Origin: Candidatus Aldehydirespirator sp.
GTDB taxonomy: Bacteria; Actinomycetota; Acidimicrobiia; Acidimicrobiales; Aldehydirespiratoraceae
NCBI GenBank assembly: GCA_965204875.1
Contig: OZ242020.1
Coordinates: 104,992 to 168,991 of the forward strand
DNA: 64,000 nucleotides
Direction: 5' to 3'
Made by a program: the position numbers and the translations under genes. Shown in pieces: positions 18,815 to 62,540 of this stretch. Every line of letters starts with the position of its first letter. Positions within the stretch are counted from its first letter, which is position 1. The notes beneath the pieces are model-generated. The model was given only the letters and a program-made list of their open reading frames with translations, was not told the DNA's origin and ran no database searches.

Positions 18815-18844
18815 GGGAGGCCCGGCCGTGCTGCCGGGCCTCCC
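18815..18844 (-). terminator. Perfect 12-bp stem hairpin downstream of SLH paralog 1
   Basis: GGGAGGCCCGGC, a 6-nt loop, then GCCGGGCCTCCC, about 30 nt after the stop. The same module follows all three SLH genes. Confidence 0.6.
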
Positions 18845-18873
18845 GGTCGGTATGCCGTCTTGTGCTGGTGGTG

Positions 18874-21513
18874 TTAGCCGGAGGGTTCGCTGAAGTTGAT
18901 GATGCCGACTGTGGCGGGTGTCTGGTCCCGGTCATCATCGGCGCCGGGGGCGTTGTCCCGCAAGCGGATCAGGAACAGGACACTGCTCTTGTCGCCCGTC
19001 TCAGTCTCGTCGGTGTCGTTCATCCAGGTTGAGAAGGTGAGACTGCCGTCCGCGCCGGTGTGGCGGGTGTGGCGGTACTGGTCCCAGTTGGGAGAAGACT
19101 GGACGGCTGAGGGCCAAACTTGGAAATCGTTTGACCCCCCCTCCCTCTTAACCCTGTTCGCGTGTTTCTTGCCGGGTTCGGGGAAGTAGATGCGTTGGAG
19201 CTCAAACGTGGCGCGGCTGGTGCCGTCGGCGCCGGCTGTGGTGTCAGAGTTGCCTGCTCTGAGTTGCACCGTGATGGCCACTTCGTCACCGTAATCGGCC
19301 TCAACGGGGGCGTTCTTGTTCTTTTTTGTGTCATCCCCCTTCTTGAACGACTTCTGCAGATCCGCGCCCTCCGACTTCACGGTGATGCTGTCAGCAGCCG
19401 TTCCAGAGGGAACGGTCACGGTCGGCGCGGACCCAGAAGTGATGCGGTCGCCCTCTGACACATGCACGTAGAACACATGCAACCGCTTGTTGTCCAGCAC
19501 CTTCCTGGTGTCCAGGTTGATGATCGCCGTAGAGGCCGGACCGTTGAACTCCTCGAGCACGCGGATCACGATCGTCTTCTTATCACCGGCAGTGCTCGGG
19601 TTCGGGTCCGCCGGCGCAGTGACAGGGAACGAGACCATGCCCGTACCGTCGGTCTTCAGCGTATATTCAGCATCGATATCATAATCACTAACGGTCTCGC
19701 ATTCAGCATCACCACATTGAGGATCGAGTCGGGTATAGCCGATGTACTCGGTGACCTCATGCATCTTATTCCGACGGGGACTATAACGCATCGCGGTAGC
19801 ATGTCCATCCACATCAAATTGCCAGGAATGCAGATTGACAGGGCTGGCACCGTCGACACCGAACGCGGCGCGCTTCAGCTTGTCACCGTCGTTCTCGTCG
19901 GTGTGCAACAACTGCACCGTGAACTGCGACCAATCACCGAACTTCATCTCAAAATAATGGGCACTCTCGCTGTCCGTAGCCTTCGTGTCCGCAACCTTGT
20001 CATCATCAGCCGTAATACGCAACGACTCCGCCGCCACCTGACTCAACGGCAAAGTCGTGGTCGTGGTAGTCGTAGTGGTCGTAGTCGTGGTAGTCGTAGT
20101 CGTCGTCGTGGTAGTCGTAGTCGTCGTGGTAGCCGGGGTGGTAGTCGTAGTCGTAGTAGTCGTGGTAGCCGGGGTGGTAGTCGTAGTAGTGGTAGCCGGG
20201 GTGGTAGTCGTGGCAGTCGTAGTAGTTGTCGCGACCGGGGCCGAACCACCACCGCCACCGCCTGCAGGGGCGGCGGGAACAACCGCGGCCGCGGCCGGCA
20301 CCGTGACAGCATCAGGATCACCGGCGATGCGCAACTCGAAACCATTCACCTCGCCGTTGTAACGGGTGCCGCGGTCGCCGGTCCAGACCCACACCGTCAC
20401 ACCCCGACCAATGGTCGACGCGCTCAACTCGTCCAGTTTGACATCGCCGTCGGCGCCGGTCACCGGGTCACGCGCATCGATCGCGCACGCCGTGGAGGTG
20501 CGGTTAACGCTGCGCACGAGAGCGTTGCACCCGCCCCGCAGATCAAACGCCCGATAGCGGCGCTGCGAACTCACATAGAACCCATCCACCGGCGCCCCCG
20601 ACACCGGCCTGAACGTCGCGTCGCGCACCGACACCACCACCACACCACCGTCGGCCTGCGCCGTCACACCCGCCGGACGCACCCCCGTGTGCGCCAGCGT
20701 GCGCTTGATGAACGACGCCATATTTTTGCGCGGCACCGGACCCTCAGGATCAAACCTCCTCGCATCCCCGGCGCTGCCCGTCGTGATACCAAGCTCATAG
20801 GCGTAACTCGCCGCAACACGCGCATCCCCCGCAGGCACATCTGCGAAATGATCCAGCGTCCCACCCGAACCCAGGATCAGCTCACCCGCCATCGCGCCGT
20901 CCTGATGGAACAGGCCGGGGCTGGCATGGCGCAGGAACCCGATCAGAGCCACCGCCATCTCGGCCCGCGTGATGCTCGCATCGGGCCTGAACGCCATCCC
21001 CGAGCCGGCCAAAATGTCGTTGCGAGCCAGCGCCAGGATCGCGTTGCGGCGCTCCTCGTCGAGATCGGCGACATCGTTGAAGTCGGCGGCGCCCGAGCCG
21101 CCTGTCAGATCCACCCCGGCGACCCCAGCAGCCCTGTGCAAGAACAACGCCATCTGCGAACGCGACACCTCAGACCCGGCATCGAACCGCTCGGCCGTCC
21201 TGCCCCTGGTGATCCCGTAATACGCGATGCAGTTGATCGCATCCTCAGCAACCAACCCCTCGACATCCACAAACCCAGCATCCTCCGACGCGTCACCAAA
21301 ACACGCAGAAAACACCGGCAACGCATCAGCCTCCGCGCGGTCGTCCCCCACAGGCGCAGCCCCGACCGGCGCAGCCACCACAACCCCACCAACCAGACCA
21401 GCCACCAACAACACACACCACAACAAACCACCACCACGACACCGGCGGCGGCGGCCGGCTACAACATCAGCAGCCCCCCCCCCCCGGGGCGAAGTACGAA
21501 CCATCAGAGACAT
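18874..21513 (-). CDS. SLH-domain surface (S-layer-like) protein with poly-Thr linker, paralog 1
   Basis: The conserved start MSLMV lies behind GGAGAGG. It is followed by an Arg-rich n-region and a hydrophobic signal, then three SLH-like repeats (FVDVEGLVAEDAINCIAYYGITRG..F.., FNDVADLDEERRNAILALARNDILAG..FRPDASITRAEMAV, and others). A poly-Thr/Pro/Ala linker of about 60 aa, a variable middle and a conserved C-terminus complete the protein. Confidence 0.8.
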   Translation of the reverse strand: MSLMVRTSPRGGGAADVVAGRRRRCRGGGLLWCVLLVAGLVGGVVVAAPVGAAPVGDDRAEADALPVFSACFGDASEDAGFVDVEGLVAEDAINCIAYYGITRGRTAERFDAGSEVSRSQMALFLHRAAGVAGVDLTGGSGAADFNDVADLDEERRNAILALARNDILAGSGMAFRPDASITRAEMAVALIGFLRHASPGLFHQDGAMAGELILGSGGTLDHFADVPAGDARVAASYAYELGITTGSAGDARRFDPEGPVPRKNMASFIKRTLAHTGVRPAGVTAQADGGVVVVSVRDATFRPVSGAPVDGFYVSSQRRYRAFDLRGGCNALVRSVNRTSTACAIDARDPVTGADGDVKLDELSASTIGRGVTVWVWTGDRGTRYNGEVNGFELRIAGDPDAVTVPAAAAVVPAAPAGGGGGGSAPVATTTTTATTTTPATTTTTTTPATTTTTTTTTTPATTTTTTTTTTTTTTTTTTTTTTTTTTLPLSQVAAESLRITADDDKVADTKATDSESAHYFEMKFGDWSQFTVQLLHTDENDGDKLKRAAFGVDGASPVNLHSWQFDVDGHATAMRYSPRRNKMHEVTEYIGYTRLDPQCGDAECETVSDYDIDAEYTLKTDGTGMVSFPVTAPADPNPSTAGDKKTIVIRVLEEFNGPASTAIINLDTRKVLDNKRLHVFYVHVSEGDRITSGSAPTVTVPSGTAADSITVKSEGADLQKSFKKGDDTKKNKNAPVEADYGDEVAITVQLRAGNSDTTAGADGTSRATFELQRIYFPEPGKKHANRVKREGGSNDFQVWPSAVQSSPNWDQYRHTRHTGADGSLTFSTWMNDTDETETGDKSSVLFLIRLRDNAPGADDDRDQTPATVGIINFSEPSG

Positions 21514-21700
21514 CAGCCTCTCCTCTCGAACACCGGCGGAACCCCGCCGACCCGAATCGACCGGCACGACCCTAACACCACCCGGCCGGCCACAAGCCAA
21601 CCCCGGCAGCACCAGCGCCGTGCCACCCACCAACATACCCCCCCCCCCCCCCCGCAACGCAACGCAACCACAACTCCTCAAGACCTTGAAGGGCCGGCAA
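21514..21700 (-). promoter_or_regulatory. Conserved leader/promoter module of SLH paralog 1, containing a poly-G tract
   Basis: About 170 nt are conserved upstream of all three SLH genes. The module includes a run of about 16 C on the plus strand (21638..21653) abutting aacata (TATGTT on the coding strand), and a GGCGG-GGTT-CCGCC hairpin just before the RBS. Confidence 0.5.
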
Positions 21701-21780
21701 GCGGAGCGGTGACCTCATCCAAGCGCCTAGCCGGAAGGGAGGGGAAGCAAGTCGGGCGAGCCTAGGCTGCCGGCACGCGC

Positions 21781-21810
21781 GGGAGGCCCGGCTGTGTTGC
21801 CGGGCCTCCC
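21781..21810 (-). terminator. Hairpin downstream of SLH paralog 2
   Basis: It has the same GGGAGGCCCGGC / GCCGGGCCTCCC stem as the hairpin at 18815. Confidence 0.6.
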
Positions 21811-21837
21811 GGTCGGTATGCCGTCTCGTGCTGGTGG

Positions 21838-24381
21838 TTAGCCGGAGGGTTCGCTGAGCCTCACGATGCCGCTCGTGACCGGAGTGTTGTTGAGGCTGTT
21901 GGCGGCGTTGGGAGCGTTGGTGCTTGAGCGGATCAGGAACACGACACTGCCTGTGTCACCGGCGGCGGTGTTGGGGTCGTCCATCCAAACCGAGAAGGTG
22001 AGACTGCCGTCAGCGCCAGTGTAACGGGTTCGCCGCCACTGATGCCAATCAGTGGACTGCTGGATAGACTCGGGTCTAACCTCCAAATTGCTTCCTCCAC
22101 TCCTTTTGATCCGATTCACGTGACCGGCCGACGGAAAGTAGCCGCGGTGAATATTGAACGCAGCGCGGCTCGTGCCATCCGCTCCAACGGTGGTGTCTGC
22201 ACCGTCAGCGTCCTTGAGTTGAACCGTGACAGTCACCTCATCACCATAATCGGCCTCCACGAACACCTTGCTGCTGTTACCGGACGTGAACGACTTGTCC
22301 GTCTTCGCACCCTTGGACGTCACAGTGATGCTCGCGGCCGCCTCGCCCGCGGGAACTGTCGTGGTCACCGCAGAGCCAGAAGTCGTACGAGCCCCCTCCG
22401 TCACAAGCACAACAACCACATGCAACCGCTTGTTCGGCAGACCCGTGAACGCGGGAGAAGCCGGACCGTTGACCTCCTCGACAATATGGAGCACCAGCGT
22501 AGCCCTGTCACCCGCAGCGCTTGGGTTCGGATCCGCCGGCGCTGTAACAGCGAACGAAGCCATCCCCGTGCCATCGGTCTTCAGAGTATGCTGAGCAACG
22601 TTATTCGGAGTTTCAGCGCAGGGGTCGCCGCCCCGAAAACCATCCACATAAGCATGGTCATTAGCGACAACTTTAGAAACAGCCTCAGAAATGCTGGTAC
22701 TACACGGAGAAAGGCCAACTCCACGACCCGTCCCGTTGACCTGCCGAACATCGACCAGCACCGGGTTCGTGCCGTCCACACCGAACGCGGCGCGCTTCAC
22801 CCTGTCACCATCGTTCTCATCGGTGTACAACAACTGCACCGTGAACTGCGACCAATCACCGAACTTCATCGCATAATAGGAAACCTTATTTTGATCAATG
22901 AGCCTGGAACCCGCAACAGTCTCATCATCAGGCGTGATGCTCAACGACTCCGCCGCCACCTGACCCAACGGCATAGTCGTAGTAGTCGTCGTCGTCGTCG
23001 TGGTGGTAGTGGTCGTAGTCGTCGTCGTCGTAGTCGTCGTCGTCGTAGTCGTCGTAGCAGTGGGCGTAGTCGTAGTCGTGGTGGTGGTGGTTGCCGGGGC
23101 GGAACCACCGCCGCCGCCTGCAGGAGCGGCGGGAACAACCGCGGTCGCGGCCGGCACCGTGACAGCCCCAGCCTCCCCAGCGATGCGCAACTCGAAACCG
23201 TCCACACTGCTGTCGTTGTAAGAATCGCCGCGGTCGCCGGACCACACCCACACCGTCACACCACGACCAATCGTCGCAGCGGTCAACTCGTCCAGCCTCA
23301 CATCACCGCCGGCACCGGTCACAGGATCACGCGCGTCGATCGCGCACACCGTCGAAGTGCGGTTCACGCTTCTGACGATCGCGTTGCACCCGCCCCGCAG
23401 ATCAAACGCCCGATAGCGGCGCTGCGAACTCACATAGAACCCATCAACCAACGCACCGGCCACCGGCGCGAACACCGCGTCACGCACCGACACAACCACC
23501 GTGTTGCCGTCAGACTGCGCCGTCACCCCCGCCGGGCGCACCTTCGTGTGCGCCAGCGTGCGCGTGATGAACGACGCCATATTCTTGCGCAGAACGGGAT
23601 CACCAGGCGAGAACAGGCTCGCGCCCGCCGCGCTGCCCCTGGTGATACCAAGCTCATACGCGTAGGAGACCGCCGTGTCCACACCCTCAGGCAGACCGCG
23701 ACGCGCGTCAGCGAAATGATCCAGCGTCGCACCCGAACCCAGGATCAGCTCACCGGCCATAGCGCCGCTCCGATGGAACAGTCCGGGGCTGGCATGGCGC
23801 AGGAACCCGACCAGTGCCACCGCCATCTCGGCCCGCGTGATGCTCGCATCGGGCCTGAACGCCATCCCCGACCCGGCCAAGATGTCATTGCGGGCCAACG
23901 CCATGATCGCGTTGCGGCGCTCCTCGTCCAAATCCGCGATGTCAGCGAAGTCGGCGGCACCCGAGCCGCCTGTCAAATCCAACCCCGCCATCCCAGCAGC
24001 CCTGTGCAAGAACAGCGCCATCTGCGAACGCGTCACCTCAGACCCGGCATCGAACCGCTCAACCGTCCTGCCCCTGGTGATCCCATAGTACGCCAGGCAG
24101 TTGATCGCAGCCTCAGCAACCAACCCCTCAGTGTCCACGAACCCCGCGTCACGCGTGGCATCACCCACACACGCCGAAAACACCGGCAACGCATCGGCCT
24201 CCGCGCCGCTGCTGCCCACAGGCGCAGCCCCAACCGGCGCAGCCACCACAACAGAACCCACCAAACCAACCACCAACAACGCAGACCACCATAAGCGAGG
24301 CTTACCCCCGCCACGGCGGCGGCCAGCTACAACATCAACCAGCCCCCCCCCCGCGGGTGAAGTACGAACCATCAGAGACAT
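21838..24381 (-). CDS. SLH-domain surface protein with poly-Thr linker, paralog 2
   Basis: The architecture and N-terminal half match paralog 1 (MSLMVRTSPAGGG...). The central region of about 200 aa has diverged. The C-terminus is conserved (...YTGADGSLTFS.WMDD...VVFLIRSSTNAP...SEPSG). Confidence 0.8.
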   Translation of the reverse strand: MSLMVRTSPAGGGLVDVVAGRRRGGGKPRLWWSALLVVGLVGSVVVAAPVGAAPVGSSGAEADALPVFSACVGDATRDAGFVDTEGLVAEAAINCLAYYGITRGRTVERFDAGSEVTRSQMALFLHRAAGMAGLDLTGGSGAADFADIADLDEERRNAIMALARNDILAGSGMAFRPDASITRAEMAVALVGFLRHASPGLFHRSGAMAGELILGSGATLDHFADARRGLPEGVDTAVSYAYELGITRGSAAGASLFSPGDPVLRKNMASFITRTLAHTKVRPAGVTAQSDGNTVVVSVRDAVFAPVAGALVDGFYVSSQRRYRAFDLRGGCNAIVRSVNRTSTVCAIDARDPVTGAGGDVRLDELTAATIGRGVTVWVWSGDRGDSYNDSSVDGFELRIAGEAGAVTVPAATAVVPAAPAGGGGGSAPATTTTTTTTTPTATTTTTTTTTTTTTTTTTTTTTTTTTTTMPLGQVAAESLSITPDDETVAGSRLIDQNKVSYYAMKFGDWSQFTVQLLYTDENDGDRVKRAAFGVDGTNPVLVDVRQVNGTGRGVGLSPCSTSISEAVSKVVANDHAYVDGFRGGDPCAETPNNVAQHTLKTDGTGMASFAVTAPADPNPSAAGDRATLVLHIVEEVNGPASPAFTGLPNKRLHVVVVLVTEGARTTSGSAVTTTVPAGEAAASITVTSKGAKTDKSFTSGNSSKVFVEADYGDEVTVTVQLKDADGADTTVGADGTSRAAFNIHRGYFPSAGHVNRIKRSGGSNLEVRPESIQQSTDWHQWRRTRYTGADGSLTFSVWMDDPNTAAGDTGSVVFLIRSSTNAPNAANSLNNTPVTSGIVRLSEPSG

Positions 24382-24560
24382 CTCAGCCTCCCCTTCTCTC
24401 GAACACCGGCAGAACCCCGCCGACCCGAATCGACCGGCACAACCCTAACACCACCCGGCCGGCCACAAGCCAACCCGGCAGCACCAGCGCTACACCAACC
24501 ACCAACATACCCCCCCCCGGGCAACGCAACCCACAACTCCACTGGGTTGGCGAAGCTCGC
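24382..24560 (-). promoter_or_regulatory. Conserved leader/promoter module of SLH paralog 2
   Basis: It is homologous to 21514..21700. Here the poly-C run is only about 9 nt (24510..24518). Confidence 0.5.
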
Positions 24561-27354: not shown

Positions 27355-30201
27355 CTATGCCTCCACGCGCTCGATCATCGAGGTGTCAGGCCCCTTGGAC
27401 ACCACGAAGCGCACGGGCATCTCGTCGCCCAGCTCGCTGATGTGGGTGACGATGCACACCATCCGGCCGGACTCGGCCAGGTCGCCGATGGCGCCGGCCA
27501 CGACGCCCAGGGCGTCGGGGTCGAGCGTGCCGAAGCCCTCGTCGAGGAACAGCGAACCGAGCGCCGGACTCCCCGCGGAGGCCGTCTCGCCCCCGCCGTC
27601 GCCGAGCGCCAGAGCCAGAGCGAGGCTCGCCAGGAACGTCTCGCCGCCCGAGAGGGTCTTGGCCCCGCGCACCTCGTCCGCGTTCTGGTGGTCGCAGATC
27701 CCGAAGTCGGGGTCGTCGGGCACAAAGGAGTACTTGCCGTCCGACAGCTCCAGCAGCCGCTCGTTGGCCCGCTCGATCAAGTCCCCGACCGCGCCCACAA
27801 GGAGCCACCGCTCGAACCCGTCGGCCCGCAGCAACCGGCCGAGCTCCGCGGCTACCTCTTCGTCGGCGCGCAACTTGCCGACGCGTGCTTCTAGCTGCTG
27901 ACGCCGACGTAGCTCCTCGGTAGCAGTCTTGTGAGACATCTCGGCATTTGTGACGGCCACCGCCATCTCGCTCACGAAGCGACTCGAGTCGTCGCCGGGC
28001 TCGAAGTGGGCCGAGCACAGGGTTCGTGCGGACGCGATCAGCTCACGCTCGCGGCCCTGCGCGTCGCGCGCCCGGCGCTCGGCCGCCTCTGACTGCCTGG
28101 CGACCGCGGCCAGCGTCTCGATGGCCCAGGCGGCCAGGTCCTCCCAGTCCTGCAGCAACGACGCCTCAGGTGCCGGTGGCGACAGTGGAGCCAACTCGTC
28201 GCGCCTGGCGCCGTAGTCGCGCCGCGCTCGCTGTTCGTCGGCCTCTAGAGCCTCTAGCGCCTTGACCGCTTGCTGCTTGCGCTCATGGGCAGTCTGTTCT
28301 GCGGCCTCGGCCTTCTGCCGGGCGGCGGCCAGAGCCCCGGCCCGCTCGATGTCCGCCTCAAGCTGGGCTACCTCGGGCTCTCCGGCCAAACGCTCTTCGA
28401 GTTCCTGGCACTGCCGCTGGCAGCTGTCCCGATCTGCCTCGACCTTCGCCTTCTCGACCTCGGCATCCTGCTCCGCCCTAAGGCAGTCCCGCGTCTCGGC
28501 AGCATCTCGCAGGTCGCGCTCGGCCTGCTCCGCGGCCTGCCGCGCAGCGCTGCACCGCTCCGCTTCGGCAGCAAGCTCGTCGGCCTGTGATTCGAGACGG
28601 TCCAGCTCGACCCCGTCCGGCTGGCCCTGAAGCTCGTGCTGCAGCGTCTTCTCTCGCGCCGATAGCTGCTGCAACTGTGACGAGAGGCGTGCCGAGGCGC
28701 TGCGCAACTCAACAAGGGCGTCGGCCGCGCGTTCAACTTCGGACTGGGCGCGGCGGTGGTCAACATCGAGCCTGGCAAGCTCAGCGTCCGGGTCGTGTTC
28801 GGGAAGTTCCACGACCGTCCGGCGGCACACGGGGCACGGTTCACCCTCTCGCAACTGCGTAACCAGTCCCTCGGCCTGCTTGAGCGCACGAGCGAGATCG
28901 AGCCGCTCCACTGCCTTCGACAAGACCCCCTTGGCCGCCGACTGCTCGGCCTGCGCCGACTGCTCGGCCGCAACAGCACGTTCATGCTCAACTGCACGAT
29001 CGGCCACCTGCGGTGCCAGCTCTTCCAGTTCGGCCCGCAACGCGCGCACCCGCTCGATCTGGCCCCGATCCGGACCGCCGGCTGCGGAGTCGAGCGCCTG
29101 CTCAGCCGCACGACGCGCCGCAGCCGCTGCGCCCTCAGCCTCAGCCAGTCGCTCACGCACGACTTCGGCGGCCGCGACCGCTTCCCCGGCGACACGCTCC
29201 GCCTCGCCGGCGCGCTCCTGCAGGGAATCCAGCCGGCCCCGCTCTGCGTCGAGACGCCCGTGATCATCGAGAAGCCTCCGACACTGCCCCACGCTGGGAC
29301 CCTCGTCTGCCTCACGGCGCGCCCCGGTCGCGGCATCGCGCGCCTCCTCGTATTTCGCCGCGGCGCCGTCGCTTGCCTCACGAGCCGCCTGAAGCTCGGC
29401 GTCGAGCCGTTGCACGGCGCCTGGCACCGCCTTGCTACGGGCGAGCACCTTCCCAGCGGCGGCGAGGCGCGACATCTCGCCCTCGGCCGCCTTGCGATCA
29501 GCAACAGCCACCTCGAGCTGCTCCATCCGGGCTTCGAGCTCTGCCTGGGCGGCGCGTGCGGCCTCGGCAAGCCCGGCAAGCTCGGTGACCCGTTCAGCGG
29601 TCGGCGCCTCACGCTCGAGTTCGGGCCGCAGCGCCGCGATCTGATCCCGGGCCGTGGCGGCCCGCCTGCGAGCCTCGGCACCCACGCGGTCGTAGATGCC
29701 CAGGCCGATGAGGTGTTTCAGCAGTTCCTGGCGGTCGGCGGCCTTGTCGTGCAGGAACTCCGCGAAACGGCCCTGCGGCAGCACCACGGTCTTGGTGAAG
29801 CGGTCGAAGTCGAGGCCCAGGAGCCCCTCAACGGCGGGGCCCATCTCGCGGGCGCTGCCGGCCAGGGTCTGCTCGCCTCGCTCCAGGCGGGCCTCCCTGG
29901 TGGAGGCGCCGGCGGCGGTCCGGCGAACCACGCGCGTCGCCGTGTACGCCTCGCCGCCCGCCTCGAAGTCGAGGGAGACCCGCGCCTCCGCCGCCAGCTG
30001 GTTGATGACCGGTGCCACGGCCCGGGCGTCGTCGTAGCGGGCCACGGTTCCGAACAGGGCGAAGGTGATGCCGTCGATGATCGTGGTCTTGCCGGATCCG
30101 GTAGGCCCCACGAGGGCTGCCTGCTCCACATCGCTGAAGTCCACCGCGGTGTCGGAGCGGAAGCTGCCGAAGCCCCTCAGGCTCAACTTCAAGGGCCTCA
30201 T
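27355..30201 (-). CDS. sbcC: SbcC / Rad50-like SMC ATPase
   Basis: Walker A GPTGSGKTT, long coiled coils, a central zinc hook CPVC, signature LSGGETFLASLALALAL, Walker B LFLDEGFGTLD. Confidence 0.9.
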   Translation of the reverse strand: MRPLKLSLRGFGSFRSDTAVDFSDVEQAALVGPTGSGKTTIIDGITFALFGTVARYDDARAVAPVINQLAAEARVSLDFEAGGEAYTATRVVRRTAAGASTREARLERGEQTLAGSAREMGPAVEGLLGLDFDRFTKTVVLPQGRFAEFLHDKAADRQELLKHLIGLGIYDRVGAEARRRAATARDQIAALRPELEREAPTAERVTELAGLAEAARAAQAELEARMEQLEVAVADRKAAEGEMSRLAAAGKVLARSKAVPGAVQRLDAELQAAREASDGAAAKYEEARDAATGARREADEGPSVGQCRRLLDDHGRLDAERGRLDSLQERAGEAERVAGEAVAAAEVVRERLAEAEGAAAAARRAAEQALDSAAGGPDRGQIERVRALRAELEELAPQVADRAVEHERAVAAEQSAQAEQSAAKGVLSKAVERLDLARALKQAEGLVTQLREGEPCPVCRRTVVELPEHDPDAELARLDVDHRRAQSEVERAADALVELRSASARLSSQLQQLSAREKTLQHELQGQPDGVELDRLESQADELAAEAERCSAARQAAEQAERDLRDAAETRDCLRAEQDAEVEKAKVEADRDSCQRQCQELEERLAGEPEVAQLEADIERAGALAAARQKAEAAEQTAHERKQQAVKALEALEADEQRARRDYGARRDELAPLSPPAPEASLLQDWEDLAAWAIETLAAVARQSEAAERRARDAQGRERELIASARTLCSAHFEPGDDSSRFVSEMAVAVTNAEMSHKTATEELRRRQQLEARVGKLRADEEVAAELGRLLRADGFERWLLVGAVGDLIERANERLLELSDGKYSFVPDDPDFGICDHQNADEVRGAKTLSGGETFLASLALALALGDGGGETASAGSPALGSLFLDEGFGTLDPDALGVVAGAIGDLAESGRMVCIVTHISELGDEMPVRFVVSKGPDTSMIERVEA

Positions 30202-30349
30202 CGCGGCGCCTCCGCGCCCCCGGCACGCCTGCGAGCGAGTGCCGCAGGAACGCTCCGAACCGGGTCAGGCCTCATCGCGGCGCCTCCGCGCCCCCGGCAC
30301 GCCTGCGAGCGAGTGCCGCAGGAACGCTCCGAACCGGGTCGGGCCTCAT
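30196..30349 (-). repeat. Two tandem 74-bp units between sbcD and sbcC
   Basis: cat (ATG) recurs at 30199, 30273 and 30347. The two units are nearly identical, differing only at about 30267/30341 (a/g). Confidence 0.9.
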
Positions 30350-31527
30350 CGCAGCGTCTCTGCCCGATCGGCCTCGTGCTGTTCCTCCAGCAGCGCGACG
30401 AACAGCGACCTCACCCGCCCGTCCGCGATGTTGCGCTCGGCCAGGTACTCGTCGAAGAGCTCGACGCTGCCGCGCCCGGATCGCGCGGACCGGCGGCGCC
30501 GAGGTTGCGAGTCGTCCTCGACGCGCACGTCCACCACGCTCTCACCGCGTGCGCCCAGCGCCTCGCGCACCTCTCCGGCAAGGCCGGCCCGCCGCGGCTC
30601 CCGCACGATCACCCTCAGCCACGGGTCTCCCTCAAGCTCCGCGGCGGCCCCGGCGACCTCCGCCAGCGTGCCCGACAGCGTGCGCAGCGACCGGCCGCCC
30701 CCCAGCCGCAGCGGCGTCACCGCCGGGGGCAGGCCGGCCTCAATCTCGACCAGGTTCACCTGCTTGTGGTGCTGCTCCTCGCCGAAGTCGAGCTGCAGGG
30801 GCGACCCGCAATAGTGGATCTGGCCAGGCCCGGCGATCCTCTGGGGCCGGTGCACGTGGCCGAGTGCCACATATCCCGCCGTGGCCGGAAAGACCTGGGC
30901 GCTCAGCGCGTACTCGTCGACGAAGTGCACGGCCCGCTCGCCGCCCCCGAGCCTGCCGCCGTGCACGAAGGCGTGCGCCATCAACACGTTGACCGTGCCG
31001 GGCTCGAAGCCCCCGGCCAGCACCTCGATCAGCAGCCGCATGCGCTCGGCATAGGCCTGCGCGTGCTCGTAGGCCTCGGAGTCCATCAGGTCCCTGGCGC
31101 GGACGATGCCGCGCCGTGACACGAACGGCAGCATGGCCACGCAGGCGTCCTCGCCCCGGCGCGTCCGCAAGCGCAGCACGCCGCCGTCGCCGGGCCTGCT
31201 CGGCTCGGCAACCACATGCACGCGCCCGGCGGCCTCGAACACGGGCGCCACGGCTGCGAGCTTGCGACCGCTGTCGTGGTTGCCGGCGATCACCGCCACC
31301 TGTGCGCCTGTGCCGGCCAGGTCCAGCAGCGCCCGGTACACGATCCTCTCCGCCTCGGCCGACGGCGCGGAGGTCTCGAACACGTCGCCCGCCACGAGCA
31401 CCAGGTCTACCGAGTGCTCACCGGCCAGGCGGGCGATCTCGGCCAGCACCGCCTGATGCTCGCCGGCGCGGCTTCGCCCCCGGATCGTCTTGCCGACGTG
31501 CCAGTCGCTGGTGTGCAGCAGTTTCAT
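30346..31527 (-). CDS. sbcD: SbcD / Mre11-like nuclease
   Basis: MKLLHTSDWHVGK...LVAGDVFE...IAGNHD phosphoesterase motifs. I prefer the start at 31527 (MKLLHTSDWH) over the listed 31608. Confidence 0.9.
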   Translation of the reverse strand: MKLLHTSDWHVGKTIRGRSRAGEHQAVLAEIARLAGEHSVDLVLVAGDVFETSAPSAEAERIVYRALLDLAGTGAQVAVIAGNHDSGRKLAAVAPVFEAAGRVHVVAEPSRPGDGGVLRLRTRRGEDACVAMLPFVSRRGIVRARDLMDSEAYEHAQAYAERMRLLIEVLAGGFEPGTVNVLMAHAFVHGGRLGGGERAVHFVDEYALSAQVFPATAGYVALGHVHRPQRIAGPGQIHYCGSPLQLDFGEEQHHKQVNLVEIEAGLPPAVTPLRLGGGRSLRTLSGTLAEVAGAAAELEGDPWLRVIVREPRRAGLAGEVREALGARGESVVDVRVEDDSQPRRRRSARSGRGSVELFDEYLAERNIADGRVRSLFVALLEEQHEADRAETLR

Positions 31528-31582
31528 CGCCGCACCCGCCGCAGCCGGGCAACCACGCCGGCGCGCCGCGCCTGTTGCAGCC

Positions 31583-33346
31583 TCACGCCAGGCCCTCGAA
31601 AGGGTCATCGGGCTGTGCGGGGCCGCCGGCGCCGGGAGGCAGGGAGGGATCGACCTCGGCTGAGCGGGTGGCCCAGGCCGGGAACGGGAACTCCACCAGC
31701 AGCGGCACCGGCAGGCGGGGCTGGGACACGTACATCGAGCCGGGCTTGAGGATCGTGGCCCGCTGGCGCTGCACGCCGGGCAGGAACCCGTACTGCTCGC
31801 GGCCCGCCTCGGCGCTGTCGAGGCGCCCGACCACGCGCACGGCGCTGTTGGCCACCACCCGCCGCTCCACCTCGCTGGCCGTCTGCTGGGCGCCGATCAG
31901 GATGATCCCGAGGCTGCGTCCCCGCTCGGCCACGTCCAGCAGGATCTCCTTGATGGGGCTGCTGCCGTCGCGGGGCGCGTACTTGTTGAGCTCGTCGAGC
32001 ACCACGAACTGCAGCGGCTTGGAGGTTCCGCTGCTCTCCTTGGCCTCGAAGGCCTGGCGCAGCACGACGCCGACCACGAAACGCTTGGCCCGGTCGTGGA
32101 GCTGATGTATGTCCACCACGGTGAGCTGGTTGGAGTCCAGGTCGATCGCGTGGGCCGGGGCGTCCGCCACGTCGGCGCGTATCAGATGGTGGAGGTGGCG
32201 CACCGAGGCGTGCAACCGGCGAACGAAGGCGTTGATCGTGCCGGGGCCGATGGCCCGCCCGCTCCAGCGCGGGTCCGGCGCCTGGTCGGGATCGTCGGGG
32301 ATCAGCTGCCGCTCGATGGCGTTCACAAGCTCGCCGAAGCGCCGGATCGTGCTCTTGCCGATGCGCACCGACCCGTCCGCCGCCGCGGTCCTATCGGCGC
32401 ACCGGGCCAGCTGCGCCGCCACCGACTGCACGACGATGGTGTACTGCTGGCGCTCGTCCTGGGCGTCCGCGAACAGGAAGGGCAGCAGCTGCTGCGAGCA
32501 GAAGTCGGCGATGCTCCAGAAGTAGGGGCGCACCCCGTAGTGCCGGGCGCCGGTGGCGGGGGTGGCGTTGGGGTCGTTGGGGCGGGGCGGCGCCAGGACG
32601 CCGACCGAGGTGAAGGGAGCGGGCTGGAGCCCCAGCGCCGCGTAGCGCTGTCGCTGGTCGGGTTCGAGGCGGGCGTTGGGGTGGTCCAGGAAGAGCAGGT
32701 CCTCGCCCTTGACGTTGAAGATCAGGCCCTTGGTGTGCATGGCCTCGCCCGCGAGCACACCCGAGTTGAACAGCGCGTACAGCAGGAACGTGGCGTAGCT
32801 GGTCTTGGTGGCGACGCCGGAGATGCCGCTGATGTTGATGTGGGCGCCCTTGGTGCCGTCGATGAAGTCGAGGTCGAGGTAGATGGGCTCGTCGTAGCGG
32901 CTCAGGCCCGCAGGAAGGCGGCGATCCGGCTCGACCTCATCGAAGTCCAGGGCCGCGTCGCGCTCCTCGCCGGCGGCGAGGCGCACCTCCGAACCGGGCA
33001 GCGGCGGCACGAACGTCTCCGGCACCACCCTGGTGAGCTGCACCTGCGCGGCCTCGCTCACCTCGGCCGGCAGCACGCCGTCGGCGATCAGGAAGACGTC
33101 GCTGTCGAAGCGGGCGCCCTCGTGGCGGGCCCGCACCTGGCTGACGACGCCGTAGAGGCAGATCCGGTCATCGTTGGGCAGCACCCGGTCTATCGCCACC
33201 ACGTCATCGAGCTGCAGGTGCGAGCCGGGTGCCACGGCCACCCAGAACTCGAGCGGCGTGGCGTCGTCGGTGCCGAGCACCCGGCCCACCACCTCGCTCA
33301 CGGCAACCTCTCCATCAATGTGCTCTTCATCAAGATGAAGGTACAA
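31583..33346 (-). CDS. herA: HerA-like (DUF87, FtsK/HerA superfamily) ATPase
   Basis: An N-terminal barrel-like region, a deviant Walker A GISGVATKTS, Walker B FVVLDELNKY, and a C-terminal LGIILIGAQQTASEV segment typical of HerA. Confidence 0.75.
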   Translation of the reverse strand: MYLHLDEEHIDGEVAVSEVVGRVLGTDDATPLEFWVAVAPGSHLQLDDVVAIDRVLPNDDRICLYGVVSQVRARHEGARFDSDVFLIADGVLPAEVSEAAQVQLTRVVPETFVPPLPGSEVRLAAGEERDAALDFDEVEPDRRLPAGLSRYDEPIYLDLDFIDGTKGAHINISGISGVATKTSYATFLLYALFNSGVLAGEAMHTKGLIFNVKGEDLLFLDHPNARLEPDQRQRYAALGLQPAPFTSVGVLAPPRPNDPNATPATGARHYGVRPYFWSIADFCSQQLLPFLFADAQDERQQYTIVVQSVAAQLARCADRTAAADGSVRIGKSTIRRFGELVNAIERQLIPDDPDQAPDPRWSGRAIGPGTINAFVRRLHASVRHLHHLIRADVADAPAHAIDLDSNQLTVVDIHQLHDRAKRFVVGVVLRQAFEAKESSGTSKPLQFVVLDELNKYAPRDGSSPIKEILLDVAERGRSLGIILIGAQQTASEVERRVVANSAVRVVGRLDSAEAGREQYGFLPGVQRQRATILKPGSMYVSQPRLPVPLLVEFPFPAWATRSAEVDPSLPPGAGGPAQPDDPFEGLA

Positions 33347-58577: not shown

Positions 58578-58580
58578 CGG

Positions 58581-59889: not shown

Positions 59890-59919
59890 GGGAGGCCCGG
59901 CGGCGTTGCCGGGCCTCCC
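59890..59919 (-). terminator. Hairpin downstream of SLH paralog 3
   Basis: It has the same GGGAGGCCCGGC / GCCGGGCCTCCC stem as the hairpins at 18815 and 21781. Confidence 0.6.
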
Positions 59920-59952: not shown

Positions 59953-62355
59953 TTAGCCGGTGGGTTCGCTGAGTCTCACGATGCCGCTTGTGACCGGGGT
60001 GGTGCCGAGGTCGTTGGTGGCGTCGGGGGCGTTGGTGCTCGAGCGGATCAGGAACACAACGCTGCCCGAGTGGCCCGAGGTGCCGGTGTCGGGGTCGTCC
60101 ATCCAGGTTGAGAAGGTGAGGCTGCCGTCAGCGCCGGTGTAACGGGTCCGCCGGTACTGGTCCCAACCGCTGGACGCCTCGGCAGACCGCGGCATAATCA
60201 CAATATCGCGCGCTCCCGCCCTTTCAATCGAGTTCGCGTGACCGCCTGTCGGGAAGTAGAGACGTTGGATATTGAACGCAGCGCGGCTCGTGCCATCCAC
60301 ACCGACGGTGGTGTCACCGTCAGCGTCCTGGAGTTGCACCGTGATCGACACCTCATCACCATAATCGGCCGCCACGAACGTCGAGCTTGTGGTCCCGGAC
60401 GTGAACGACTTGTCAGTCTTGGCACCGTTGGACATCACGGTAATCTTGGTAGCCGCGTCGCCGGCGGGCACGGTCGTGGTCACCGCGGACCCAGAAGTCG
60501 TGCGCGCACCCTCCGACACATGCACAATGACCACATGCATCCGCTTGTTCGGAACAGCAGTGATCGCAGACGATGCCGGACCGTTGATCTCCTCCACAAG
60601 ATGAACTACCAGCGTGCGCCTGTCACCCGCAGTGCCCGGGGTCGGATCCGCCGGCGCCATAACAGCGAACGAAGCCATACCCGTGCTATCGGTCTTCAGA
60701 GTATGCTGAGCAACGGTAGCATCGTTTCGAGTGGAATTGAGATAGTCGTTAGCAACAACCTTCGGCGTAGCACTACTGAACTGAGAAGGGTTCTTTAGGT
60801 GAGTATCGATGTCGACCTGCCGAACATCAATCAACACAGGGTTCGTGCCGTCCACACCGAACGCGGCGCGCTTCACCTTGTCACCATCATTCTCGTCGGT
60901 GTACAACAACTGCACCGTGAACTGCGACCAGTCACCGAACTTCATCTGGTAATAGTCACCGCCACCACTAAAGGTGGCCTTGGTAGCCGCAACCTTCTCA
61001 TCATCAGGCGTGATACTCAACGACTCGGCCGCCACCTGACCCAACGGCATAGTAGTCGTAGTCGTCGTAGTGGTCGTAGTAGGCGTAGTCGTCGTCGTCG
61101 TCGTGGTCGTCGTGGCGGAACCGCCGCCGCCGCCTGCTGGGGCGGCGGGAACGACCGCGGTCGCGGCCGGCACCGTGACAGCGTCAGGATCACCGGCGAT
61201 GCGCAACTCGAACCCGTCCACACTGCTGTCGTTGTAAGAATCGCCCCGGTCGCCGGACCAGACCCACACCGTCACACCACGACCGATGGTCGCGGCGGCC
61301 AGCTCGTCCAGCTTCACATCACCATCGGCGCCGGTGACCGGATCACGCGCGTCGACCGCGCACGCCGTCGAGGTGCGATTCACGCTCCGCACGAGCGCGT
61401 TGCACCCGCCCCGCAGATCAAACGCCCGATAGCGGCGCTGCGTGCTCACATAGAACCCGTCAACCGGCGCACCAGCCACCGGCATGAACATTGCGTCGCG
61501 CACCGACACCACCACCGTGTTGCCATCGGCCTGCGCGGTCACGCCAGCGGGGCGCACACCCGTGTGCGCCAACCAGCGCGACACGAACGATGCCAGGTTC
61601 TTGCGCAGCACACGACCCTCAGGATCAAACTTGCTCCCATCGCTGGCGCTGCCCGTCGTCAACCCCAACTCGAACCCATAACTCGCCGCCGTGCCCACAC
61701 GTCCCGAACGCGCGTCGCTGAAATGATCCAGGCTGCCCTCGCCGAGCTTCAACGCGCCCGACGCGTCGAACAGGCCCGGGCTCGCCAACCGCAACAACCC
61801 CACAAGCGCCGCCACCGTCTCAGCACGCGTCACCGGCACACCGGACATGGCACCGTCACCCGAGAGCACACCGGCGGCGGCCAACGCCGCCACAGCACGC
61901 CGGGTCTCATTGTCCATCGCGGCGTCGCCATCCATCCCGGCGTCATCTTCGGCGTCACCGAACTCAACCCCCGCGAGCACCGCCGCCCGATACAACACCA
62001 ACGCCAACTCCGCACGCGACACCACCGCACCGGCACCGAACCGGTCCTCAGACGCGCTCACGGCGACCCCGTAATACGCCAGACAGTTCACCGCGTCCTC
62101 AGCGCCGATACCCGCAACATCCACAAACCCCGCATCCCCCAACGCGTCACCAAAACACGCAGAAAACACCGGCAACACATCAGCCTCCGCGCCGCTGCCG
62201 CCCACAGGCGCGGCCCCAGCAGGAGCCGCTGCCACAACCCCACCAACCAAACCAACCACCAACAACACACACCACAACAAACCACCACCACCACCACGGC
62301 GGCGGCCGGCTACAACATCAGCCAGCCCCCCCCCCGCGGCGAGAACCACTACCAA
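59953..62355 (-). CDS. SLH-domain surface protein with a shorter poly-Thr linker, paralog 3; the conserved start is apparently out of frame
   Basis: The architecture matches paralogs 1 and 2. The ORF track starts this ORF at a TTG (MVVVLAAGGG...). The conserved RBS and ATG-TCT-CTG-ATG lie a few nt upstream in a different frame. Confidence 0.7.
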   Translation of the reverse strand: MVVVLAAGGGLADVVAGRRRGGGGGLLWCVLLVVGLVGGVVAAAPAGAAPVGGSGAEADVLPVFSACFGDALGDAGFVDVAGIGAEDAVNCLAYYGVAVSASEDRFGAGAVVSRAELALVLYRAAVLAGVEFGDAEDDAGMDGDAAMDNETRRAVAALAAAGVLSGDGAMSGVPVTRAETVAALVGLLRLASPGLFDASGALKLGEGSLDHFSDARSGRVGTAASYGFELGLTTGSASDGSKFDPEGRVLRKNLASFVSRWLAHTGVRPAGVTAQADGNTVVVSVRDAMFMPVAGAPVDGFYVSTQRRYRAFDLRGGCNALVRSVNRTSTACAVDARDPVTGADGDVKLDELAAATIGRGVTVWVWSGDRGDSYNDSSVDGFELRIAGDPDAVTVPAATAVVPAAPAGGGGGSATTTTTTTTTTPTTTTTTTTTTMPLGQVAAESLSITPDDEKVAATKATFSGGGDYYQMKFGDWSQFTVQLLYTDENDGDKVKRAAFGVDGTNPVLIDVRQVDIDTHLKNPSQFSSATPKVVANDYLNSTRNDATVAQHTLKTDSTGMASFAVMAPADPTPGTAGDRRTLVVHLVEEINGPASSAITAVPNKRMHVVIVHVSEGARTTSGSAVTTTVPAGDAATKITVMSNGAKTDKSFTSGTTSSTFVAADYGDEVSITVQLQDADGDTTVGVDGTSRAAFNIQRLYFPTGGHANSIERAGARDIVIMPRSAEASSGWDQYRRTRYTGADGSLTFSTWMDDPDTGTSGHSGSVVFLIRSSTNAPDATNDLGTTPVTSGIVRLSEPTG

Positions 62356-62540
62356 CCATCAGAGACATCTGAGCCTCCCCTTTCTCTCGAACGCCGGCAG
62401 AACCCCGCCGACCCGGCTAGACGGCACAACCCTAACACCACCGGCCGGCAACACGCCAACCCCGGCAGCACCAGAGCCACACCACCCACCAACATACCCA
62501 AGCCGCCCCCCGGCACGCAACAACCACAAACCCTCAAGGC
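62356..62540 (-). promoter_or_regulatory. Conserved leader/promoter module of SLH paralog 3
   Basis: It is homologous to the other two leaders. Here the poly-C run next to aacata is interrupted (ccc aag ccg cccccc). Confidence 0.45.

What the first reader, a model, noticed from the sequence alone, without database searches (positions are those of the whole stretch)
18815..24560. Tandem pair of mosaic SLH / poly-Thr surface-protein paralogs built from shared leader, start and terminator modules
Two adjacent genes of about 2.6 kb, plus a third at 59953..62355, encode proteins with the same layout. Each has the MSLMV start, an Arg-rich signal, three SLH-like repeats, a conserved domain of about 250 aa and a poly-Thr linker. 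A central region of about 200 aa has diverged, and the last ~100 aa are conserved again (YTGADGSLTFS...VFLIR...SEP(S/T)G). Each copy also keeps a leader of about 170 nt and an identical 12-bp-stem terminator. Conserved flanks around a variable cassette form a substrate for recombinational or antigenic variation of an S-layer-like surface. That is known for Campylobacter fetus sap genes, but I am not aware of it being described in high-GC Gram-positives.
Basis: partly seen in the sequence, partly recalled or inferred. Interest (0 to 1): 0.7.

Follow-up and report, generated by a model that had tools for sequence, protein, structure and literature searches.

The report
Poly-G-switched SLH surface-protein gene family
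Three mosaic copies of a cell-wall-anchored surface-protein gene in an Acidimicrobiales chromosome each carry their own promoter-leader and terminator, and they hold every long poly-G run in the window at two conserved 5' positions, which suggests on/off switching of single copies rather than cassette swapping.

Summary
Three minus-strand paralogs (A 18874-21513, B 21838-24381, C 59953-62355) encode signal peptide, three SLH repeats, a beta-sandwich domain, a poly-Thr linker and Ig-like domains. Each has a conserved leader of about 125 nt and an identical 12-bp 3' hairpin.

The mosaic ancestry is statistically strong. The SLH region groups A with B, and the C-terminal half groups B with C (max-chi2 105.7 against a permutation maximum of 23). 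No tract is near-identical (minimum dS about 0.17). The same domain combinations recur in other genomes, so the recombination is old.

The Campylobacter fetus sap model is not met. Every copy has its own promoter-like region, Shine-Dalgarno sequence and signal peptide, and all copies are in direct orientation.

All five homopolymers of 9 nt or more in the window are poly-G tracts at two homologous sites in these genes. One site is at the promoter (A G16, B G9). The other is at codons 10-13 (A G12, B G10, C G10). C's conserved ATG is out of frame.

The same two sites carry G11-G15 tracts in four paralogs of a distant Acidimicrobiales MAG, and two of those are out of frame.

Best reading: a contingency-locus family that phase-varies by slipped-strand mispairing. 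This is unproven, because homopolymer sequencing error could mimic the frame states.

The parts
18874..21513 (-). Paralog A CDS, 879 aa: signal peptide, SLH x3, beta-sandwich, poly-Thr linker (20044-20262), Ig-like C-terminal domains
21838..24381 (-). Paralog B CDS, 847 aa, same layout; poly-Thr linker at 22966-23118
59953..62355 (-). Paralog C long ORF, 800 codons from TTG 62355. The conserved RBS and ATG at 62368 are out of frame by one G in the G10 tract. Poly-Thr linker at about 61042-61134.
21474..21485 (-). Coding poly-G tract of A (G12, codons 10-14, in frame)
24343..24352 (-). Coding poly-G tract of B (G10, in frame)
62326..62335 (-). Coding poly-G tract of C (G10). It puts the conserved ATG out of frame; G9 or G12 would restore the frame.
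21638..21653 (-). Promoter-proximal poly-G tract of A (G16). It lies between a (TTGCG)x3 / TTGCGT -35-like element and the -10-like TATGTT at 21632-21637.
24510..24518 (-). Promoter-proximal poly-G tract of B (G9), between TTGCGT (24524-24529) and TATGTT (24504-24509)
62497..62514 (-). Homologous position in C. The tract is interrupted (GCCGGGGGGCGGCTTGGG), giving a fixed 18-nt spacer between TTGCGT (62515-62520) and TATGTT (62491-62496).
21514..21637 (-). Leader of A: -10-like TATGTT, a long hairpin of about 30 bp, TGTTAGGGT (extended -10-like), a second hairpin CGGCGGGGUUCCGCCG, and the SD GGAGAGG
24382..24509 (-). Leader of B (same elements)
62369..62496 (-). Leader of C (same elements)
18815..18844 (-). 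3' hairpin of A (12-bp GC stem, 6-nt loop, no U-tail)
21781..21810 (-). 3' hairpin of B
59890..59919 (-). 3' hairpin of C
22582..22746 (-). Hypervariable segment of B (residues 546-600). Its core (561-578) is a low-confidence surface loop of the first post-linker beta-sandwich domain. The homologous A and C stretches are about 19695-19860 and 60734-60861.

Best explanation
These are three members of a large Acidimicrobiales multigene family of wall-anchored surface proteins.

Protein layout. An N-terminal signal peptide with a long n-region is followed by a three-SLH module. By analogy with B. anthracis Sap, that module should bind pyruvylated secondary cell-wall polymer. Next comes a conserved disulfide-containing beta-sandwich. 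A poly-Thr spacer follows, disordered and probably O-glycosylated. It projects two or three Ig-like beta-sandwich domains outward, and one of them carries a hypervariable loop.

Gene layout. Each gene is an autonomous expression unit. It has a promoter-like region, a structured 5' leader of about 125 nt, a strong Shine-Dalgarno sequence with ATG, and a GC-rich 3' hairpin.

Two layers of variation.
(1) Shown: past homologous recombination or gene conversion among paralogs has produced mosaics.
(2) Inferred: each copy can be switched on or off independently by slipped-strand length changes in two poly-G tracts. One tract sits between the -35-like and -10-like promoter elements and would set spacer length and so transcription. 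The other sits at codons 10-13 of the signal peptide and sets the reading frame.

In this assembly A and B are in frame and C is frame-shifted off. The likely benefit is stochastic change of the exposed surface, for example to escape phages that use these proteins as receptors.
For: Family and fold:
- Pfam SLH is found in all three.
- The AlphaFold model shows SLH x3, a beta-sandwich, a disordered linker and beta-sandwich domains.
- Foldseek matches the Sap SLH module complexed with pyruvylated SCWP (6bt4) and Ig-like MG, invasin and FdeC folds.
- A TRAE motif is visible in SLH2 (ITRAEMAVAL).
- More than 271 homologues were found. At least 10 lie on one 3.05-Mb contig, and 5 were recovered from Acidimicrobiales MAG OZ220491.1: three loci plus P0009 and P0053.

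Autonomous units:
- Leader and hairpin are conserved at all three copies and nowhere else in the window.
- The leaders fold better than shuffled sequence (z -3.4, -2.9, -2.0).
- The 3' hairpin is kept in OZ220491.1 paralogs, with 8 of 16 pairs changed on both sides.

Mosaic ancestry.

Poly-G tracts:
- All 5 homopolymers of 9 nt or more in the 64-kb window fall at two homologous sites of these genes. The pattern G9 matches 17 times against 1.9 expected.
- Across about 177 kb of Acidimicrobiales DNA, all 13 runs of 8 nt or more lie at these two sites in 8 genes.
- The sites are conserved at only about 52% protein identity: L001 promoter G13, L002 G12 and G11, L003 G14 and G14, L116 G15 and G15.
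- Tract length differs at every copy.
- Three of 7 coding tracts put the conserved RBS-ATG out of frame (C, L002, L116). Each is followed by an intact ORF of 800 to about 1390 codons.
- GGG makes up only 18% of Gly codons in neighbouring genes. The second Gly run a few codons downstream uses GGT and GGC.
- With TTGxxx as the -35, spacers of 17, 18 and 18 nt to TATAGT or TATGGT result in L001, L002 and L116.

Context: copy C lies in a defence-island-like neighbourhood with SoFic, an MTase-HNH fusion and MntA-like NTases.
Against: - No population data are available, so length heterogeneity of the tracts within a strain is not shown.
- G10-G16 tracts are exactly where long-read consensus sequences err. 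The ON and OFF calls could therefore be assembly errors.
- The promoter is not mapped. With the aligned TTGCGT as -35, the spacers are 19 (A), 14 (B) and 18 (C), and L003 gives 29. The tract-as-spacer model does not fit every copy.
- An extended -10-like TGTTAGGGT about 60 nt downstream could be the real promoter.
- Subfamily II relatives lack tracts altogether.
- The close relative L005 has the coding tract (G9) but no promoter tract.
- Surface location, SCWP binding, glycosylation and phage-receptor function are all inferred by analogy.
Confidence: 0.55

Rival explanations
1. This is an ordinary diverged paralog family with no programmed variation. The poly-G tracts are by-products of Gly codons and a G-rich leader in a high-GC genome. 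The out-of-frame copies are homopolymer sequencing errors or young pseudogenes.
For: Frame states rest on single consensus assemblies, and contig names suggest long-read assemblers. Subfamily II lacks tracts. The paralogs are old, with dS at least 0.17 everywhere. Orthologous mosaics are stable across genomes.
Against: All 13 runs of 8 nt or more in about 177 kb fall at two homologous positions. They persist across lineages that share only about 52% protein identity, while their lengths differ at every copy. GGG is a minority Gly codon, and the neighbouring Gly run avoids it. The out-of-frame copies keep ORFs of 800-1390 codons intact.
Confidence: 0.27
2. Conserved 5' and 3' flanks act as recombination arms that swap a variable cassette between loci, giving antigenic variation of an S-layer as in Campylobacter fetus sap.
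For: There are conserved flanks and an internal hypervariable stretch. The recombination signal is significant. Within-genome homogenisation of the beta-sandwich domain is visible: A, B and C are 83-89% identical to each other but 77-82% to P0001-P0003.
Against: There are no silent, promoterless cassettes, because each copy has its own leader, SD and signal peptide. All copies are in direct orientation, and I saw no recombinase gene or invertible promoter near them (ORF lists and Pfam scans of neighbouring genes). No near-identical tracts exist. The hypervariable stretch is unique in every protein compared (13-47% identity), so no shared cassette pool is seen. A signal peptide is present, unlike type-I-secreted SapA (the SapA secretion route is from my own knowledge).
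Confidence: 0.1
3. The G tracts are cis-regulatory structures (G-quadruplexes) or sites of transcriptional slippage or ribosomal frameshifting. They would tune expression without any heritable change in DNA length.
For: Runs of G12-G16 can in principle form G4 structures or promote RNA-polymerase slippage (general knowledge). Out-of-frame copies could still be expressed through slippage, which would explain their intact ORFs.
Against: Tract lengths differ freely between copies, from 9 to 16, which is unlike a structure under length constraint. G9-G10 is too short for a stable intramolecular G4. Slippage is best documented for A and T runs (general knowledge).
Confidence: 0.08

Closest known systems
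Neisseria Opa outer-membrane protein family (own knowledge)
   Same: There are several complete loci per genome, each with its own promoter. A repeat tract inside the signal-peptide coding region sets the reading frame of each copy independently. The genes are mosaics with hypervariable segments shaped by inter-locus recombination.
   Different: Opa uses CTCTT pentamers, not poly-G. Opa proteins are unrelated beta-barrels of a diderm pathogen. Here there is an extra promoter-proximal tract, and the host is a free-living or environmental actinobacterium.
Neisseria meningitidis porA / opc and Bordetella fim promoter homopolymers (own knowledge)
   Same: A poly-G or poly-C tract lies between the -35 and -10 elements, so tract length sets spacer length and promoter strength.
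   Different: The promoter is not mapped here, and the spacer arithmetic fits only some copies.
Campylobacter fetus sap S-layer variation (own knowledge)
   Same: A family of surface-layer protein genes shares a conserved 5' region and has divergent remainders.
   Different: The sap system uses one promoter on an invertible segment that serves promoterless cassettes, and SapA has no signal peptide. Here every copy is autonomous, in direct orientation, and carries a signal peptide.
Bacillus anthracis Sap / EA1 / BSL SLH proteins (PDB 3pyw, 6bt4)
   Same: A three-SLH module with the same fold (TM 0.76-0.79, 23-24% identity) and a TRAE motif. Many SLH paralogs with different passenger domains occur per genome.
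   Different: The host is Acidimicrobiia, not Firmicutes. There is a poly-Thr spacer and a family-specific beta-sandwich after the SLH module. No homopolymer tracts are known to me in the Bacillus genes.
Tropheryma whipplei WiSP surface proteins (PMC2078596)
   Same: An actinobacterial surface-protein family whose conserved N-terminal repeats are proposed to promote recombination and surface diversity.
   Different: WiSP proteins have WND domains, not SLH, and are not homologous. WiSP recombination produces large inversions and deletions between nearly identical (99%) repeats. Here the repeats are 80-90% identical.
Mycobacterium tuberculosis homopolymer-tract phase variants such as glpK (PMC10334774; bioRxiv 10.1101/717272)
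   Same: Reversible frameshifts in G/C homopolymers of a high-GC actinobacterium.
   Different: The tracts here are longer (9-16 nt; my recollection is that the glpK tract is about 7 nt). They occur in pairs (promoter and coding) and are attached to a multigene surface-protein family.

Membership tests
SLH-domain cell-wall-anchored proteins (Pfam PF00395) | SLH HMM match above the gathering score | tested here: met
   38.9, 42.0 and 22.8 bits against a cut-off of 20.8
SLH-domain cell-wall-anchored proteins (Pfam PF00395) | Three tandem SLH repeats forming the pseudo-trimeric module | tested here: met
   AlphaFold residues 50-280 have pLDDT above 90. Foldseek matches 3pyw and 6bt4 with TM 0.76-0.79 over 188-198 columns.
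SLH-domain cell-wall-anchored proteins (Pfam PF00395) | TRAE-type motif used for binding pyruvylated SCWP | tested here: met
   ITRAEMAVAL in SLH2 of A and B, VTRAETVAAL in C. SLH1 has TRSQ and SLH3 has LRKN.
SLH-domain cell-wall-anchored proteins (Pfam PF00395) | Genome encodes CsaB pyruvyl transferase and a pyruvylated SCWP | not testable with these tools
   No csaB was found among the window ORFs scanned. The rest of the genome is unavailable.
True S-layer (lattice-forming) protein | Self-assembly into a 2-D paracrystalline array; dominant abundance | not testable with these tools
   Ten or more paralogs with swapped passenger domains per genome fit SLH-anchored accessory proteins or adhesins at least as well.
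Campylobacter fetus sap-type cassette system | A single promoter on an invertible element that serves promoterless homologues | tested here: not met
   Each copy has its own conserved promoter-like region, leader and SD.
Campylobacter fetus sap-type cassette system | Opposed orientation of cassettes, allowing inversion | tested here: not met
   A, B and C are all on the minus strand.
Campylobacter fetus sap-type cassette system | A conserved 5' region shared by all homologues | tested here: met
   The leader and N-terminal half are 80-95% identical.
Simple-sequence contingency loci (slipped-strand phase variation) | Homopolymer of 8-9 nt or more within the 5' coding region or core promoter of a surface-protein gene | tested here: met
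   Coding tracts are G10-G12 and promoter tracts G9-G16 in the window. Relatives carry tracts of G9-G15 at the same sites: G11-G15 in OZ220491.1 and a coding G9 in L005.
Simple-sequence contingency loci (slipped-strand phase variation) | Tracts over-represented relative to the genome background | tested here: met
   The G9 pattern matches 17 times against 1.9 expected. All 13 runs of 8 nt or more in about 177 kb lie at the two sites.
Simple-sequence contingency loci (slipped-strand phase variation) | Tract length differs between copies, with in-frame and out-of-frame states and otherwise intact ORFs | tested here: met
   Four are in frame (A, B, L003, L005) and three are out of frame (C, L002, L116). 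Caveat: these are consensus assemblies only.
Simple-sequence contingency loci (slipped-strand phase variation) | Tract-length heterogeneity within one clonal population, correlated with expression | not testable with these tools
   No reads and no same-strain assemblies are available. The closest genome (the 3.05-Mb contig) could not be fetched.

The most novel reading that the evidence does not exclude
A free-living or environmental actinobacterial lineage (Acidimicrobiales) runs a contingency-gene system on its cell surface. A multigene family of SLH-anchored proteins would have each copy gated independently by two hypermutable poly-G tracts, one at the promoter spacer and one in the signal-peptide codons. 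This would be layered on paralog gene conversion and would give combinatorial, heritable but reversible surface coats, plausibly as a defence against phages. To my knowledge, and in the literature searched here, neither SLH proteins nor phase variation has been described for this class.
Probability: 0.45. Interest if true: 0.72.

Novelty: new variant of a known kind. Interest (0 to 1): 0.6.

Why it matters
Phase-variable surface-protein families are textbook for host-adapted pathogens such as Neisseria, Campylobacter, Haemophilus and Mycoplasma. They are hardly documented in environmental high-GC monoderms.

If the tracts switch, Acidimicrobiia, which are abundant in soils, waters and activated sludge and mostly uncultured, would use the same bet-hedging logic. 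The likely pressure would be phages or grazers.

It would also give a directly testable marker. Tract-length heteroplasmy could be read in existing metagenomic reads to follow surface switching in situ.

There is a practical point as well. Most public gene calls for this subfamily are N-terminally truncated (MPVFSAC...). Annotation pipelines therefore mishandle these starts, and secretion prediction for them is unreliable.

Tried and rejected
(1) I scanned the metagenome collection with the leader core GGTGTTAGGGTNGTNCCG. It returned 107 stretches, but BLAST of the full leaders and of gene B against all fetched loci matched only L005 and L001-L003. The rest were chance hits.

(2) I tried to fetch the closest genome, a 3,054,164-nt contig holding at least 10 paralogs, through P0001, P0003, P0004, P0005 and P0006. 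None was on record. No synteny or chimera test against a sister strain was therefore possible.

(3) A protein search with the 81-aa N-terminus found nothing.

(4) Rfam found only four tRNAs in the window and no known RNA family for the leader.

(5) The sigma-70 and terminator consensus scan did not flag the leader promoter or the 3' hairpin, which has no U-tail.

(6) The afdb50 fold library was unavailable.

(7) Leader covariation rests on only 4 sequences. Four of 41 pairs show changes on both sides, and the covariation term is about 0, so the leader structure is plausible but not demonstrated.

(8) I considered a diversity-generating retroelement or an invertase-driven shufflon. I saw no reverse transcriptase or recombinase gene next to A, B or C, but no dedicated search was run. 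Integrases do occur next to subfamily II genes in other genomes.

(9) Literature searches for SLH proteins in Acidimicrobiia or Acidimicrobiales, and for homopolymer phase variation of actinobacterial S-layers, returned 0 papers.
Full report
OBSERVATION. Three long ORFs lie on the minus strand. A is 18874-21513 (879 aa from the MSLMV ATG), B is 21838-24381 (847 aa) and C is 59953-62355 (800 aa from TTG). They align end to end, with B 72% and C 65% identical to A.

Pfam finds SLH in each, at 38.9, 42.0 and 22.8 bits against a cut-off of 20.8. The leader core motif and the 12-bp-stem hairpin each occur exactly at the three copies and nowhere else in the window. For the hairpin, 0 matches were expected in shuffled sequence. 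Leaders from the -10-like TATGTT to the ATG are 81-87% identical with gaps counted. The 70 nt after the stop codon are 76-90% identical. The corrections are given below.

WHAT THE PROTEINS ARE. I built an AlphaFold model of B from a 117-sequence alignment (mean pLDDT 79.6). It shows these parts:
- a disordered signal region (residues 1-48);
- a helical three-SLH module (50-280, pLDDT above 90);
- a beta-sandwich (285-405) with two invariant cysteines;
- a disordered poly-Thr linker (407-473);
- further beta-sandwich domains (479-660 and 684-843).

Foldseek matches the SLH module to Bacillus anthracis Sap, including the complex with pyruvylated cell-wall polymer (3pyw and 6bt4, TM 0.76-0.79). 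The remainder matches strings of Ig-like domains such as macroglobulin MG, invasin and FdeC. The TRAE motif is present in SLH2.

Anchoring to a pyruvylated wall polymer, O-glycosylation of the Thr linker and outward display of the Ig-like domains are inferences from those families. None of them is shown here.

THE FAMILY. More than 271 homologues were found. The only genome-collection relative with a name is Acidimicrobiales MAG OZ220491.1. One 3.05-Mb contig carries at least 10 paralogs whose C-terminal modules are swapped among Big_1, fn3 and extra repeats.

N-termini split the family in two. Subfamily II is the majority and starts MPQLVKKRRSGWAVLA.... Subfamily I has a long n-region, MS(L/Q)xV...GGG...RRR, and includes the window genes, P0121 (locus L005) and four OZ220491.1 genes.

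The SLH genes have a GC3 of 0.71-0.74, while their neighbours have 0.88-0.93. The same offset appears in OZ220491.1. The surrounding window is ordinary chromosome, with aconitase, citrate synthase, Mur ligase, Ddl, thiolases and SbcCD.

MOSAIC ANCESTRY. DNA identity in 60-nt windows changes abruptly along the genes. In the SLH region A and B are about 90% identical, while C is about 50% identical to either. In the C-terminal half B and C are 80-85% identical, while A is 55-68% identical to either.

Of 796 informative sites, the SLH block supports A=B at 99 of 120 sites. The 3' half supports B=C. A single-breakpoint max-chi2 gives 105.7, against a permutation maximum of 23 (0 of 1000 permutations reach it).

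Synonymous divergence confirms different ages rather than different constraint. For A-B, dS is 0.2-0.5 in the 5' half and 0.6 to over 2 in the 3' half. For B-C, dS is about 1.2 in SLH2 and SLH3 and 0.36-0.5 in the 3' half.

Three observations argue against an active cassette system:
- No window has dS below about 0.17.
- B shares its domain combination with P0001, and C with P0004 from other assemblies.
- The 55-aa hypervariable stretch (B residues 546-600) is unique in every protein (13-47% identity). Its core (residues 561-578) is a low-confidence loop in the model, and for the B-C pair its dN is about equal to its dS.

Recombination is thus real but old, and I did not see a shared cassette pool.

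EXPRESSION MODULES. Each copy has a strong SD (GGAGG-like) 5-8 nt before the conserved ATG. Each leader is predicted to form a hairpin of about 30 bp plus a second hairpin, with z-scores of -3.4, -2.9 and -2.0. Covariation support is weak because only four sequences are available.

Without gaps, leader divergence is about 0.09. That is lower than synonymous divergence in the adjacent codons (0.17-0.31), which suggests constraint.

The 3' hairpin lacks a U-tail. It is nevertheless retained in OZ220491.1 paralogs, with 8 of 16 pairs changed on both sides. It is therefore a selected structure, either a terminator or a 3' stabiliser.

Because every copy is self-sufficient, the sap model of one promoter serving silent cassettes by inversion is not met.

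THE POLY-G TRACTS. All five homopolymers of 9 nt or more in the 64-kb window are poly-G on the coding strand of these genes, at two homologous positions. The G9 pattern matches 17 times against 1.9 expected.

Site 1 lies directly 5' of the -10-like TATGTT, where leader conservation begins.
- A has G16 (21638-21653).
- B has G9 (24510-24518).
- C has an interrupted version of the tract.

Site 2 lies at codons 10-13 of the signal peptide.
- A has G12 and is in frame.
- B has G10 and is in frame.
- C has G10, which puts the conserved RBS-ATG (62368) out of frame. That frame reads MSLMVGSGSRRGGGAG and then stops. G9 or G12 would restore MSLMVGSGSRRGGGLADVVAGRRR..., the layout seen in the relative L005, which has G9 and is in frame.

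The same two sites carry tracts in OZ220491.1, at only about 52% protein identity:
- L001 has a promoter G13.
- L002 has a promoter G12 and a coding G11, which is out of frame (the ATG frame hits TAG).
- L003 has G14 at both sites and is in frame.
- L116 has G15 at both sites and is out of frame; it needs G14.

Across about 177 kb of Acidimicrobiales DNA fetched here, all 13 runs of 8 nt or more lie at these two sites in 8 genes. Subfamily II loci have none.

GGG makes up 18% of Gly codons in neighbouring genes. The next Gly run a few codons downstream uses GGT and GGC. The three out-of-frame copies keep ORFs of 800 to about 1390 codons intact. That argues for recent or reversible shifts, or for consensus errors, and against old pseudogenes.

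PROMOTER GEOMETRY. This part is inference. In OZ220491.1 a T-rich stretch is followed by GGGTTG, then the tract, then (CAT)TGGTG and TATGGT or TATAGT. Taking TTGxxx as the -35 gives spacers of 17 nt (L001), 18 nt (L002) and 18 nt (L116), but 29 nt in L003.

In the window the aligned -35-like TTGCGT gives 19 nt for A, 14 nt for B and 18 nt for C, where the tract is interrupted and so fixed. The fit is partial. An extended -10-like TGTTAGGGT about 60 nt downstream is also conserved in L005 and is an alternative promoter.

MECHANISM AND RIVALS. Taken together, the anatomy matches simple-sequence contingency loci. I give 0.55 to the composite reading set out under the best explanation.
- Near-certain: an SLH-anchored surface-protein family built of autonomous units, with old recombination between copies.
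- About even odds: the tracts really switch expression.

The main rival (0.27) is that the tracts are inert and the frame states are homopolymer consensus errors. Contig names suggest long-read assemblers. Error could explain a frame state, but it cannot explain why the tracts exist, sit at conserved positions and are exclusive to these genes.

The sap-like cassette model gets 0.10. A structural or slippage role for the tracts, without any change in DNA length, gets 0.08.

COMPARISON WITH KNOWN SYSTEMS. In working logic the closest match is the Neisseria opa family, together with promoter-spacer homopolymers such as porA and opc (own knowledge). In protein family the genes are SLH proteins like B. 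anthracis Sap and the BSLs.

Actinobacterial precedents exist for both layers. Tropheryma whipplei WiSP surface proteins recombine through conserved WND repeats (PMC2078596). Homopolymer phase variation occurs in Mycobacterium tuberculosis (PMC10334774).

I found no paper linking SLH proteins or S-layer phase variation to Acidimicrobiia. I therefore rate this as a new variant of a known kind.

LIMITS. There are no reads, no sister-strain genome and no expression data. Searches were dead ends.

Noticed in passing
window 58760-59770 and 62791-63801 (minus strand): Two paralogous 336-aa nucleotidyltransferase genes (Pfam Polbeta / NTP_transf_2; MntA-like; PADLOC candidate PDC-S09) flank copy C as a 4031-bp direct repeat. 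They are themselves mosaics. The 5' 450 nt are 93-100% identical, the middle is 35-68% identical at the protein level, and the last 120 nt or so are 93-95% identical.
   Followed up: partly
window 54132-58653: A defence-island-like stretch lies beside copy C. It holds a low-GC (0.56) DNA methyltransferase with a C-terminal HNH-like tail (54132-55655), a SoFic-type Fic protein (55980-57398, PADLOC E 1e-58), tRNA-Val, tRNA-Cys and tRNA-Gly, and a phosphoribosyltransferase gene. The same Pribosyltran gene lies near SLH genes in L113 and L114.
   Followed up: partly
L113 4710-5861 and L115 4721-5872: In two other genomes a P4-type tyrosine integrase (Arm-DNA-bind_3 / Phage_integrase) ends about 130 nt upstream of a subfamily II SLH gene, and further SLH paralogs (SLH+RCC1) lie nearby. 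This suggests that these surface-protein genes travel on, or accumulate in, integrative islands.
   Followed up: no
window 18874-24381 and 59953-62355; L001-L003: The SLH genes have a much lower third-position GC (0.71-0.74) than adjacent genes (0.88-0.93). The same offset appears in OZ220491.1 (0.54-0.62 against 0.66-0.73). The cause is unknown; horizontal transfer, expression-linked codon use and relaxed selection are all possible.
   Followed up: partly
window 2190-2783 (minus strand): A small (197 aa) membrane-anchored protein carries its own poly-Thr run, roughly 25 Thr by eye. It has no Pfam family and is not homologous to the SLH genes.
   Followed up: no
window 3259-4980 (plus strand); L001 1423-2868: An HNH endonuclease gene with a long N-terminal region, which resembles the actinobacterial DUF222/HNH type from my own knowledge. 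From the N-terminal sequence shown, a similar-looking ORF lies a few kb from the SLH gene in L001; this was judged by eye only.
   Followed up: no
window 30194-30341: A perfect-looking tandem duplication of a 74-nt unit (99% identical) lies at the junction of the SbcC-like (27355-30264) and SbcD-like (30346-31896) genes.
   Followed up: no
window 21653-21667: Three tandem TTGCG pentamers lie immediately 5' of A's G16 tract, the last one sharing its final G with the tract. B and C have one or two copies. This is a second short repeat that could shift -35 placement.
   Followed up: no
P0001-P0004, P0006, P0009 (public gene calls): Public gene calls for subfamily I proteins mostly start at an internal TTG (MPVFSAC...) or right at the poly-G tract (P0009, MVPAGGGGG...), so the signal peptide is lost. 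This could be a consequence of out-of-frame tracts or of an internal GGAGG upstream of that TTG.
   Followed up: partly
window 21700-21760 and 62560-62620: A and C share about 70 nt of extra upstream homology beyond the tract (57-75% identical), which B lacks. B's leader abuts the stop codon of the upstream membrane-protein gene (24575).
   Followed up: no
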